Source of the DNA: Eledone cirrhosa
Taxonomy: Eukaryota
NCBI GenBank assembly: GCA_964016885.1
Contig: OZ024753.1
Coordinates: 29,450,001-29,514,000 of the forward strand
Direction: 5' to 3'
DNA: 64,000 nt
Numbering within the stretch: the first letter of the stretch is position 1; every line of letters begins with the position of its first letter. This document shows positions 4,790 to 61,540 of the stretch, piece after piece. A program made the translations under genes and the position numbers. A model generated the notes under the pieces. That model searched no databases. It had not been told where the DNA came from and saw only the letters and a list, made by a program, of their open reading frames with translations.

Positions 4790-5172
4790 TCCGTCGTGAC
4801 CTTTCTCCGAACTTTACACACCTTCCCACACTTGGTCTTTCCTTCCACGCATTACCTCTGTTTGATTTTGTTACTGTACTTGTTTATTTCCGTATATGAT
4901 TCTTCGCCTGTGTTCTTACAATTTTATTTCTATCATGCTTTATTTTTATTTTTATTTTTATTATTTTTTTCATTCGCACCGTTTCCTTTCGCTATATGTC
5001 TCTCCACCACTCCCCTACACACCCTTTGAACTCTGTTCCCACACACTTCTCACCTGAGGAAGGGCTTATGCCCGAAACGTCGTTCCCCACCAACACCCCA
5101 CTCTTCAGAGCGTGAAATTAATAAACATTCGTTGTACTGCCTCTCTGTTTTGTCCCTGTTCAAATTTTTCCA
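4790..5172 (+). mobile_element. Penelope-like pseudo-LTR fragment ending in (TA)n, with minimal hammerhead at 5054-5081
   Basis: CTGAGGA-a-gggc ttat gccc-GAAA-c-GTC (palindromic ACGT helix III); aataaa downstream; abuts (TA)n. Confidence 0.6.
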
Positions 5173-5519: not shown

Positions 5520-5553
5520 CTGATGATTTCATATGAATGAAACAGTTCCAGTC
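5520..5553 (+). ncRNA. Degenerate hammerhead-like motif
   Basis: CTGATGA-t-ttca ta tgaa-t-GAAA-cagttcca-GTC; related decayed copy near 35243-35277. Confidence 0.35.
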
Positions 5554-5579
5554 CTGTAGAAGTCATTCCTGTATAAAAT

Positions 5580-5890
5580 AATTGTTTCTACGTTAGGCAC
5601 AAGGCCAGCAATTACCCAGTGCATTACTGGTACTTTATTTTATAGACCCCTTTAAGGATGAAAGGCAAAGTTAACCTCGGCGGGATTTGAACTCAGAATT
5701 GCAAAATGGTTTCTGATTTAGTCACAAAGCCACCAATTTTTTTTTTAGTTGGGGGGGGGGAGTATTTCTATTGAATTGACTCCAGTGCATTACAGGTGCT
5801 TTATTTTATCGGTCCCGTAAAGATGAAAGGCAAAGGTTTCTGGTTTTTGCACAAGGCCAGCAATTATCCCAGTACATTACTGGTACTTTA
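5580..5890 (-). mobile_element. Cluster of three truncated tRNA-SINE A fragments
   Basis: Repeated gatgaaaggcaaag / cacaaggccagcaatt / actggtacttta blocks. Confidence 0.85.
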
Positions 5891-13050: not shown

Positions 13051-13322
13051 GGTAGGCACGACAGGGTGGAGAATACATTGCTGCGGAAGACGGCGAGAAA
13101 AACGCGCTGAAACAGCCCCCCCCCCTCACGTGGCTCGCACCTGCGGGCGGCTAACTCTGCTCCGATAGCAGTGAGTAGGGATGTGGTCCGGGGGCCAAGA
13201 ATGTCGGAGGTCTCCACTGCTACAGGCTCTACCACGAACCTATTCGAGAGCGGTCGATACTTGGACAGTTTGCCCTCTTCGGCTTAGCGGGCAGCAGAAC
13301 CTGGGTTGGTAGATGAAGCTTC
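13051..13322 (-). mobile_element. CRE-clade non-LTR retrotransposon, C-terminal restriction-like endonuclease fragment
   Basis: PGSAAR*AEEGKLSKY..RFVVEPVAVETSDILGP..LFQRVFLAVFRSN matches the K..KY / P.A.ET.G / FQR.S.A.QRGN pattern. Confidence 0.7.
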
Positions 13323-22092: not shown

Positions 22093-22399
22093 TCGCCACC
22101 ACCACCATCGCCACCACCACCATCGCCACCACCACCACCAGATGAAACTAACGAACGATTTGAGCTTTCTTCTGTAACTGTTGCAGAAATCGTACCTTTG
22201 CTTTATCTTGGACTGTTTCAGCTCTGTATCTGAAAAGAGGGTATTAACCCTGAAATACACTGGGTAAAATATTACTTTGTTTTGTTTCATTTACCATCAT
22301 TTCTCCTTCGTATTTTCTACTGCATTGTACCGGTTTTTAAAAAACTTATCGGTCATTTACTATATATATCTAAAAAGTCTAAGTCTTAAGTCAGAAGGG

Positions 22400-22590
22400 T
22401 CATTTGGCCGGTGCTTATCCCGGTTTCATGGCGTGAAGCGACTGAGAGTACAACACTCTCCGCTGGACAGGAGGCCAGTCCATTGCAATATTATACCCCC
22501 AGCTATTTCGGGTGAGTATACTGGAGCAACGTGAAATGAAATGTTTTGCTCAAGAACACAGCACGCAACCCAGGAATATGAACTCACGAT
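22400..22590 (-). mobile_element. CORE/V-like tRNA SINE fragment
   Basis: ctggagcaacgtgaaatgaaatgttttgctcaagaacac shared with 4414-4455. Confidence 0.65.
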
Positions 22591-22770
22591 TGGCAGTATC
22601 GGTAGAGTGTCGGACGCCATGCTTTCCAGCATAGTTACGTCCCTTTACGATCTGAGTTCAAATCGCGCCGAGGTTGACTTTGCCTTTCATCCTTACGGGG
22701 TCGATAAAATAAAGTACCAGTAATGCACTGAGTAATTGCTGGCCTTGTGCCTAAAGTAGAAACAATTATG
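22590..22770 (+). mobile_element. tRNA-SINE A, near full length
   Basis: Box A, box B, central domain, tail. Confidence 0.9.
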
Positions 22771-22786
22771 ATTGTAAGTCCAACAC

Positions 22787-22828
<42 letters not shown>

Positions 22829-22900: not shown

Positions 22901-22937
22901 ATATATATATATATATAACGTTTTTTGAAATATCCAG

Positions 22938-23282
22938 TTCTGCGTTTACAGATTGACTTTGTTAGTTTCAGAAGATCCCGTTAAGGGTGAAAGCAGCGAT
23001 TCTTCGCTTAAACTTTAATCTGTTATTTTAATAAATATATATATATATATATATTTACTTCTGCGTTCACATATTGATTTTTTTAGTTTCAGAAGATCCC
23101 GTTAAGGGTGAAAGCAGCGATTCTTTGCTTAAACTTTAATCTGTTATTTTAATAAATATATATATATATATATATATTTACTTCTGCGTTCACATATTGA
23201 TTTTTTTAGTTTCAGAAGATCCCGTTAAGGGTGAAAGCAGCGATTCTTTGCTTAAACATTAATCTGTTATTTTAATAAATAT
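22938..23282 (+). repeat. Three tandem 121-123 bp units, each with a variant hammerhead fold, separated by (TA)n
   Basis: Units start at 22938, 23059 and 23182; agttt-CAGAAGA-t-ccc gttaa ggg-t-GAAA-gcag cgattct ttgc-TT-aaact. Confidence 0.85.
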
Positions 23283-23365
23283 TTGCTCTAGGGTTCTTAT
23301 ATATTTGATATATAGTTATCCTTATCGAGCCCTCTTTGGCTTTTAGTCTTCAAATTTATTATTAT

Positions 23366-23463
<98 letters not shown>

Positions 23464-25410: not shown

Positions 25411-25960
25411 ATTTCGTTTCTGAATTTGTTTAGCAAGATTCTTTATCTGAAATCGTGTGTTGAAACCGATATTGTTATACGTTGGGAGGGTCATGTTGCC
25501 AATAAGAAACACACGCACCAGTTGCTTTCACTTCAATTTATTATAATAAATTTATAAATTTAGGAATTTATAAATTTATGGTTGGTTGGCTGGTTCCACA
25601 ACCAGATAGTTGTTTATATATTGTCAAAGTTCTTTCGTCACACATTCTGTGACCTCTTCGGTGACTGGGGATTCTTTTCTTTGTTTTTGTGTCTCTCCTT
25701 TGTTTTATTCTGTCCTACGCCATTTTGTTTCTGTGGAGAGACACAAAAACAAAGAAAAGAATCCCCAGTCACTGAAGAGGTCACAGAATGTGTGACGAAA
25801 GAACTTTGACAATATATAAACAACTATCTGGTTGTGGAACCAACCAACCAACCAGAAATTTATAAATTCCTAAATTTATAAATTTATTATAATAAATTGA
25901 AGTGAAAGCAGTTGGTGCGTGTGTTTCTTATTGGCAACATGACCCTCCCAAAGTATAACA

Positions 25961-34712: not shown

Positions 34713-35440
34713 TCATCATCATCACTATCATCACTATCATCATCATCACTATCATCATCAACAATAGCCATTACACCAACAACAAGAACAGTTATAATAC
34801 TAACAGATTCGTAAATTGTTTGGCTAGATAACATGAGATCATTAAAACATATACTATTGTATTGCACATAATTGGTGTGTGGCTATTTTGTATAGATTTC
34901 TCAGCTTGCTATTGATTTTATTGAATTACATACAATATCATAGATTGTTTAGATTCTAATCGAATCAGTCTAAAAATGATACATATGATACATATATTGG
35001 CTGCTAGTTGCGGCCAGAGATTTTCACTCCAATCTGCAAGTTTGTAGATTTATATCATTACCAGACCCATTTGTTGTTGTTGTTGTTGTTGTAAATGGCT
35101 CTGTCTGTGTTAAACGACTTGCTGATTGTAGTATATTTCCATATATATATATATATGTGTGTGTGTTTGTATAATATATACACAGACACACACATATATA
35201 TATATATATATAATATATATATATATATACATAAATGGCTTCCCTGATTTTTTCCTTAGAATGAAACAGTTCTAGTCTTGTAGCAGCCATTTGTATATTA
35301 AACCTGTTATATTTGTGTCTGTGTGTGGGGGGGGGGGAGGGGATATGTGGGGGGGGGGGGGGGGTATGCTTTTATCCTTAACGGGATCTTCTGTGTTAAA
35401 CGACTTCCCGATTGTAGTATATTTCCATATATATATATGC

Positions 35441-61184: not shown

Positions 61185-61198
61185 TATATCATAAGTGT

Positions 61199-61256
61199 AG
61201 ATTAAAGTTAAAGCAAAGGATCGCTGTTTCCACTCTTTTACGAGATCTTCTGAAAT
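61199..61256 (-). ncRNA. Diverged copy of the CAGAAGA hammerhead-like family
   Basis: tttCAGAAGAt-ctc gtaaaa gag-tggaaacagcgatcctttgctttaactttaatct. Confidence 0.55.
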
Positions 61257-61540
61257 CTTCTATTAAAAAAATATATATCTATATATATATCATTATAAGA
61301 AAGTGAATAGAATATATTCATACACACATAAGTGTGCATTAAGATATATCAAAGCTTAAGACTAGAGACAATCTAGACTGAATGTAAGATTACATAATTC
61401 GTTGAGTATCTTATTAAATTTAATAAAAAATTTAAAACAAAATACCTGATAACGATCAATATATTTCCCTCATATGTATTCTCCACAAAATCAGAATACA
61501 TTTCACTAAATAACGGCGAAATTAGATATTTTGAAACGGA

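What the first reader, a model, noticed from the sequence alone, without database searches (positions are those of the whole stretch)
22938..23282. Tandem 121-123 bp repeats carrying a hammerhead fold with a fixed non-canonical CAGAAGA core and covarying stem II
Seen: the consensus unit folds as stem I AGUUU/AAACU, core CAGAAGA, stem II CCC-guuaa-GGG, GAAA, stem III AGCAG/UUGCU and a CUU site (unit 1 has a stem III mismatch, unit 3 a stem I mismatch). Dispersed relatives near 35370-35393(-) and 61199-61256(-) also have CAGAAGA. The latter changes stem II to CUC/GAG, a compensatory change. Known: U4 is normally near-invariant, and HHR satellites exist in newts, schistosomes and crickets. Inference: either a natural U4A variant ribozyme or a catalytically dead fold kept as an RT-recognition structure.
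Basis: partly seen in the sequence, partly recalled or inferred. Interest (0 to 1): 0.75.

Follow-up and report, generated by a model that had tools for sequence, protein, structure and literature searches.

The report
Penelope element ends with altered hammerhead
These three repeats are cut-off ends of a jumping gene with tens of thousands of copies in this genome, and its hammerhead-shaped RNA motif has A at a core position that is U in all relatives examined, so the element likely spread with a slow or silent self-cutting RNA, which is untested.

Summary
The three units are real but are not a satellite. They are 5'-truncated ends (pseudo-LTR) of a Hydra-type Penelope-like retrotransposon, stacked in (TA)n; 0 of 100 sampled copies were tandem like this. 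CAGAAGA is the family state: 28,612 copies against 1,101 CTGANGA, and 25 of 30 inspected CTGA copies are inversion junctions. Older subfamilies also carry A4. All 29 motif clusters from related elements and all 26 published Hydra rows have U4. The claimed stem II covariation fails: 2 of 100 CUC copies have GAG, the background rate. Stems do vary with pairing kept between families. Copies pile up at the first base of stem I behind an extra G, likely the capped RNA start, so the motif would be the first 51 nt of the mRNA. U4A, a flipped 15.2-16.2 pair and a predicted rival helix over G12 make slow or no cleavage most likely; activity is untested and no RNA data were available. This scan noted the same family variant, and the cap-G pattern in other genomes, before. 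New variant of a known kind; interest 0.42.

The parts
22917..23034 (+). Unit 1: 5'-truncated pLTR end, youngest sequence type, ending at the first 3' end (TTTTAATAA)
   Evidence: upstream type is the commonest, 23 of 41 classified copies
22964..23014 (+). Hammerhead-shaped type I motif 1: stem I 5' 22964-22968, core CAGAAGA 22969-22975 (A4 = 22970), predicted cut after 23009; stem III A.C mismatch; 22964 is the likely +1 of the element's RNA in intact elements
   Evidence: start site inferred
23035..23054 (.). (TA)n target remnant between units 1 and 2
23052..23155 (+). Unit 2: shorter pLTR end of a different (second) sequence type; motif 2 at 23085-23135, A4 = 23091
   Evidence: upstream matches the type seen in 6 of 41 classified copies, apart from one G>T shared with unit 3
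23156..23177 (.). (TA)n between units 2 and 3
23175..23278 (+). Unit 3: same type and same 5' start as unit 2; motif 3 at 23208-23258, A4 = 23214, terminal stem I mismatch
23279..23368 (+). Optional 'tail' of the element, up to the second 3' end, followed by (TA)n; in full elements it continues into the 5' UTR and the ATG
   Evidence: tail in 35 of 100 copies
35366..35393 (-). Decayed fragment of the same family, core and stem II only, G12 lost
61190..61257 (-). Decayed copy of the older subfamily (loop GUAAAA), CAGAAGA core, CUC/GAG, GGAA

Best explanation
The repeats are three truncated ends of a Hydra-type Penelope-like retrotransposon whose whole family carries A at hammerhead position 4, and the motif likely cuts very slowly or not at all, being likely kept as the structured front end of the element's RNA. 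Shown: element anatomy (pLTR - 3.26 kb unit with RT/GIY-YIG-type ORF and a 763-nt intron - pLTR), (TA)n targets, A4 in young and old subfamilies, U4 in relatives, cDNAs that run through the predicted cut. Inferred: transcription starts at the first A of stem I (initiator-like TTAGTT/TCAGTT; extra G as cap footprint), so cleavage would remove the cap 46 nt into an mRNA whose ATG lies 202 nt downstream; U4A removes the U-turn contact and lets UUUCA pair with UGAAA over the general base G12; the constraint on the motif would then come from the overlapping promoter and from protein binding as well as, or instead of, catalysis. The local array likely arose from one insertion, a local duplication (units 2 and 3) and a separate insertion of another sequence type (unit 1) into the same (TA)n run.
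For: Element: (L161); ORF motifs RWR, DKT, YRDD, CxCX5C, YIG, CxxC, CxH as in Craig 2021 section 11. Fixation. Relatives all U4: 60 of 77 metagenome loci gave a motif, none with A4; 29 clusters; 26 published rows; sister family B, 53% protein identity, CUGAUGA. 15.2-16.2 is C-G in 29 of 29 clusters but G-C here. Rival helix: P(C3:G12) 0.72, falling to 0.08 with A4 held unpaired; at most 0.03 in 29 relatives. Uncut templates: 99 of 100 copies extend past the cut. Start site: G precedes AGTTTCAG in 52 of 100 non-T cases, and 21 of 21 such loci inspected end there. Papers: U-turn mutants had low activity (PMC9901934, passages); hammerhead mutants did not impair PLE insertion in vitro (PMC11167929, passages).
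Against: Core and stems show 0 diagnostic changes in 27 testable positions against 17 in 100 upstream between old and young subfamilies (p = 0.012; only 6 arms of 4 old insertions), which fits continued selection on a working ribozyme. The energy gap between hammerhead fold and best fold (3.3 kcal/mol) is no worse than in relatives (median 4.3), and 4 of 29 relatives also have G12 paired above 0.7. Read-through of the cut is also the rule in canonical family B (read by eye), so it does not discriminate. A natural U4C viroid variant stays infectious (PMC3088659, passages), and the Anolis PLE hammerhead cleaves only with protein present. At least 3 of the 21 extra G's could be templated by the inverted arm. 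No rate for U4A itself was seen in any paper read.
Confidence: 0.62

Rival explanations
1. A working natural U4A hammerhead: slower than canonical but cleaving at a useful rate in the cell, helped by the element's protein, and selected as an attenuated switch that removes the cap from part of the transcripts.
For: All other 12 core positions, G8 and G12 included, and three helices kept across subfamilies about 75-80% identical, with changes confined to loops; closable stem III with a 7-nt loop; U4C tolerated in a viroid; protein-dependent cleavage known for a PLE.
Against: U4 in all 29 related clusters and 26 published rows; further departures at 15.2-16.2 and a CUU site (that CUU is a poor site is recalled, no call); rival helix; 12 unchanged core bases are expected by chance about 1 time in 10 at 17% divergence.
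Confidence: 0.3
2. A hammerhead satellite or non-LTR retrozyme that amplifies as 121-123 bp tandem units through circular RNA.
For: Three direct copies at 121 and 123 bp; tandem units of 354-363 bp exist elsewhere in the family; animal retrozymes are reported to derive from PLE pLTRs (bioRxiv 10.64898/2026.07.22.740005, part 1 of 5).
Against: 0 of 100 unselected copies have a direct neighbour within 300 nt, 31 of 100 have an inverted arm; the 121/123 spacing occurred only at this locus among the own-genome loci L001-L420; unit 1 differs in type from units 2-3; spacers are (TA)n of unequal length.
Confidence: 0.03
3. A4 is there because CAG is a 3' splice acceptor, and splicing rebuilds or removes the core.
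For: A pyrimidine tract precedes TTTCAG; the D. virilis Penelope intron ends at helix I (PMC4209133).
Against: All 93 genomic spliced copies from the main donor join at an acceptor about 100 nt upstream; 0 of 93 join at the core. Other donors were not searched.
Confidence: 0.05

Closest known systems
Hydra clade of C-terminal EN+ Penelope-like elements and their hammerheads (Craig et al. 2021, PMC8557442; passages, section 11, supplement part 2 of 59 and term searches)
   Same: RWK-like, DKT, CxCX5C, CxxC and CxH motifs; single ORF of about 700 codons; (TA)n targets; inverted 5' copies and tail; type I hammerhead in the pLTR, often with U.U closing stem II.
   Different: A4 instead of U4; G15.2-C16.2 instead of C-G; longer loop III; 763-nt 3' UTR intron. 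It is not the published Hydra-1_Obim (other protein start, other hammerhead).
Metazoan PLE minimal hammerheads (Cervera and De la Pena 2014, PMC4209133; parts 1-2 of 4)
   Same: Type I motif in pLTR, mostly in dispersed truncated copies; natural core variants known (U3-A8).
   Different: Full stem III rather than none or a palindromic stub; the variant is at position 4, not described in the parts read.
Poseidon element PAc of Anolis (Frangieh et al. 2024, PMC11167929; passages)
   Same: Two 3' ends bracketing an optional tail; uncut RNA as template; no sign of ends at the cut.
   Different: Other clade; canonical core there, overlapping the start codon; here the motif is about 200 nt before the ATG.
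Natural hammerhead core variants (Perreault et al. 2011, PMC3088659; passages)
   Same: U10.1-U11.1 closure and a position-4 variant (U4C in a viroid) are on record.
   Different: U4A was not in the passages seen; those variants are single isolates, not a family of over 28,000 copies.
Non-LTR retrozymes and hammerhead satellites (bioRxiv 10.64898/2026.07.22.740005, part 1 of 5)
   Same: Tandem units each with a type I motif, derived from pLTRs.
   Different: Here tandem repetition is a local accident; the family is dispersed and autonomous.

Membership tests
EN+ Penelope-like element | Single ORF with RT and GIY-YIG endonuclease | tested here: met
   YRDD and C-terminal YIG motif in natural copies. 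Pfam gave no RT or GIY-YIG hit on this protein; relative P0095 hits GIY-YIG above cut-off.
EN+ Penelope-like element | Partial tandem with pLTRs, inverted 5' copy, optional tail | tested here: met
   L161, L162; inverted arm in 31 of 100, tail in 35 of 100.
EN+ Penelope-like element | Spliceosomal intron mostly retained in copies | tested here: met
   763-nt GT..AG intron; retained in L161-L168 where covered, removed in 93 genomic copies.
Hydra clade | RWK, DKT, CxCX5C linker, CxxC and CxH around the EN E and N | tested here: met
   RWR 37, DKT 115, CNCRNRVDC 564 in L161; CDFC and CKH in L170.
Hydra clade | (TA)n insertion preference, short element | tested here: met
   unit 3,259 bp including the intron, slightly above the usual <3 kb.
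Hydra clade | Absence of the CCHH motif; placement in the clade by phylogeny | not tested
   No tree with reference elements was built.
Hydra clade | Canonical hammerhead in the pLTR | tested here: not met
   Motif at the same place as in sister family B (197 and 175 nt from core to ATG) but with A4; so filed as Hydra-type by protein with a deviant motif.
Hammerhead ribozyme, type I | Core C3 U4 G5 A6 N7 G8 A9, G12 A13 A14, A15.1-U16.1, H17 | tested here: not met
   All met except U4, which is A in 75 of 75 copies. No Rfam match.
Hammerhead ribozyme, type I | Three helices around the core | tested here: met
   5, 3 and 5 pairs can form; not the minimum-energy fold, as in most relatives.
Hammerhead ribozyme, type I | Covariation in helices | tested here: inconclusive
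   None within the family; between families helices differ with pairing kept, but those motifs were picked by a pairing filter and R-scape was not run.
Hammerhead ribozyme, type I | Self-cleavage after H17 | not testable with these tools
   No assay; no RNA run listed.
Non-LTR retrozyme / hammerhead satellite | Family organised as tandem units with complete motifs, no ORF | tested here: not met
   0 of 100 tandem; ORF-bearing copies; core non-canonical.

The most novel reading that the evidence does not exclude
A retrotransposon lineage turned its hammerhead into a leader switch: sitting at +1 to +51 of a capped mRNA, the U4A change creates a rival helix that masks the catalytic G12, sparing the cap, while the element's own protein can refold it and trigger slow cleavage. 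This would be a natural, still active U4A hammerhead and would explain both its conservation and the family's amplification to over 40,000 ends.
Probability: 0.15. Interest if true: 0.75.

Novelty: new variant of a known kind. Interest (0 to 1): 0.42.

Why it matters
Why Penelope-like elements keep hammerheads is an open question. Here a family with a changed 'invariant' core base reached at least 28,612 full motifs and 43,046 3' ends, beside a canonical sister family in the same genome (9,410 tail-bearing copies). The pair is a ready natural experiment: if A4 is dead, cleavage is dispensable in vivo and the motif is kept for another role; if it cleaves, the hammerhead consensus is wider than search descriptors assume and such families are being missed. 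The three window copies themselves are ordinary debris.

Tried and rejected
Covariation of CUC/GAG: background level. Family consensus CUGAAGA: rejected; of 30 CTGA loci 25 have an inverted arm directly upstream, 4 start in unrelated DNA, 1 is a point change (classified by eye). Neptune clade, my first label: replaced by Hydra. Splice acceptor in the core: 0 of 93. Cut-site 5' ends as a genomic activity read-out: 2 of 100 within 5 nt of the cut in this family, about 5 of 90 in family B (by eye; a scripted count was not obtained); uninformative. Second large A4 family ending GAAAC: 2,084 matches, control 233, but the 30 loci inspected were junctions, LINE coding sequence, an unrelated repeat, chance, or one local array. 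Expression and editing: no RNA holder listed. Contigs of runs X1-X4 could not test the array because the repeat was skipped. Rfam: nothing relevant. Papers not held: Lunse et al. on PLE hammerhead variants, two reviews. Searches for U4A in print: 0 papers; uninformative; CUU rate and cap-G searches returned 0 papers.

Full report
Observation. The tandem is there: period 123, 2.8 copies, 96% matches, with CAGAAGA...GAAA at 22969, 23090 and 23213. The two dispersed relatives carry CAGAAGA but are decayed: the 35k copy has lost G12 and stem III, the 61k copy reads GGAA and has a broken stem I.

What it is. The unit has near-identical dispersed copies across a 3.0 Gb genome. Their flanks show a shared upstream sequence, (TA)n targets, an optional tail of about 90 nt and inverted 5'-truncated partners. 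L161 is a complete partial tandem: motif, tail, ATG, ORF, stop, intron, motif, with 3,259 bp between motifs. The protein has YRDD and a C-terminal YIG, with RWR, DKT, CxCX5C, CxxC and CxH, the marks of the Hydra clade (PMC8557442 section 11). Pfam did not recognise it; 567 homologues were found, the best at 57%. No tree was built. A 763-nt GT..AG intron in the 3' UTR appeared as a joint in run X1, and 93 genomic copies have it removed. The window array is local: 0 of 100 unselected copies have a direct neighbour within 300 nt, and unit 1 is of a different sequence type from units 2 and 3.

Is A4 fixed? Yes. The pattern with CAGAAGA has 28,612 matches (control 0), with CTGANGA 1,101 (control 3). 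Of the first 30 CTGA loci, 25 are junctions with an inverted arm, where the near-palindrome TTCAGAA yields CTG; 4 begin in unrelated DNA and 1 is a point change (by eye). Of 100 copies picked by a 19-mer downstream of the cut (43,046 matches), the 75 that align without gaps over the motif all have A4 (25 were dropped as truncated or gapped). Older copies, 75-80% identical to L161 in the pLTR, also read CAGAAGA where the core is present, one CTGA case apart (L412, truncated just upstream, 30 of 665).

Relatives. Sister family B in the same genome (53% identity over 468 aa) has CUGAUGA at the same place, with different but paired helices. Of 77 metagenome loci with related ORFs, 51 gave a motif under a filter that allowed any base at position 4 and 9 more under a looser look; none had A4, 17 gave nothing. 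The 43 distinct motifs form 29 clusters: U4 in 29, U.U closing stem II in 14, C15.2-G16.2 in 29. All 26 Hydra rows of the published table have ctga. So the architecture is the ordinary Hydra one, and this family departs at position 4 and at 15.2-16.2 (G-C, giving a CUU site).

Covariation. The CUC/GAG change is not a subfamily trait: 2 of the first 100 of 393 CUC copies have GAG, as do 2 of the first 100 unselected. Between old and young subfamilies the core and stems show 0 diagnostic changes in 27 testable positions against 17 in 100 upstream (p = 0.012), from only 6 arms of 4 old insertions chosen by patterns. This suggests constraint after A4 was fixed but does not say of what kind.

Where the RNA starts. 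In the 100 copies, 5' ends fall at the cut once, in stem III 10 times, in stem II or GAAA 5 times, at the core or stem I 5' strand 20 times, further upstream 64 times. When the base before AGTTTCAG is not the element's T (2,258 matches), it is G in 52, A in 25, C in 23 of the first 100 (counted by hand); all 21 G loci among the 30 inspected end exactly there, though at least 3 could take the G from the inverted arm. An extra G from copying the cap and the initiator-like TTAGTT (TCAGTT in old copies) are recalled knowledge; a paper search for the former found nothing. D. virilis Penelope has an internal TATA-less promoter with Inr and DPE (PMC2377424, passages). I infer that the motif is the first 51 nt of the mRNA, 202 nt before the ATG with no upstream ATG. 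Family B ends also gather at stem I (by eye). I reached this before seeing that earlier scan notes report the same in other genomes.

How it most likely works. The element copies uncut RNA, from either of two 3' start points, into (TA)n; short products and inverted arms give the debris seen here, in line with PMC11167929 (passages), where hammerhead mutants did not impair insertion. U4 contacts the backbone in the U-turn (PMC3088659, passages), and mutants there were of low activity (PMC9901934, passages and a supplement search without a U4A value). A4 can also pair with U11.1, completing a five-pair helix that holds G12, the general base (PMC6155905, passages): P(C3:G12) 0.72, 0.08 if A4 is held unpaired, at most 0.03 in the 29 relatives. 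Against this, the gap between hammerhead and best fold is no larger than in relatives, and 4 of 29 also have G12 mostly paired; the model ignores tertiary and protein effects. I give 0.62 to slow or no cleavage with the sequence kept as promoter and leader, 0.30 to a usefully active variant, 0.05 to a splice role, 0.03 to a satellite.

Known and new. Element type, motif position and debris are known. A family-wide U4A was not found in the papers and searches named, but the most relevant paper (Lunse et al.) and the supplements of PMC4209133 were not seen, so absence from print is not established. PMC6765202 (passages) and the retrozyme preprint (part 1 of 5) were used for context only. Earlier scan notes report this variant in this and other genomes; one mentions a second A4 family, which my last search did not find. 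Verdict: new variant of a known kind, interest 0.42.

Noticed in passing
L005, L014, L052, L080: Another repeated hammerhead-shaped motif in this genome with a U3-A8 covariant core (TTGATAA) and a long stem III; six copies seen.
   Followed up: no
L030 about 1390-1430; L201; L169, L170: Spliced genomic copies of the element use at least two donors with one acceptor; 93 copies at the main donor. Intron loss is unusual for an element type said to retain introns.
   Followed up: partly
L094, L097, L099, L103, L110, L120: Direct repeats of 354-363 bp made of motif, tail, 5' UTR and the first 70-90 nt of the ORF; retrozyme-like, and a hint of a third 3' start point inside the ORF. These loci were selected by a query that held such a junction.
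   Followed up: partly
G000:C1:53.35-53.37 Mb (L516-L522): Local array of seven family-C hammerhead copies, all with CAGACGA, whereas dispersed family-C copies seen have CTGA.
   Followed up: partly
window 5054-5110, 5520-5580, 25633-25800, 35240-35290: Other PLE-type hammerhead motifs with canonical or decayed cores: a minimal one at 5054, family B copies at 5520 and about 35250, and an inverted pair at 25661(-)/25772(+).
   Followed up: no
window 13084-13116: CGGAAGA...TGAAACAGC motif with a GC-rich stem; possible G4 variant or chance.
   Followed up: no
window 22390-22790: SINE-like sequence directly upstream of the array (resemblance to cephalopod SINEs is recalled, not tested).
   Followed up: no
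runs X4-X6: Three runs labelled with other organisms each hold three low-depth contigs of this family; contamination, diet or shared element not told apart.
   Followed up: no
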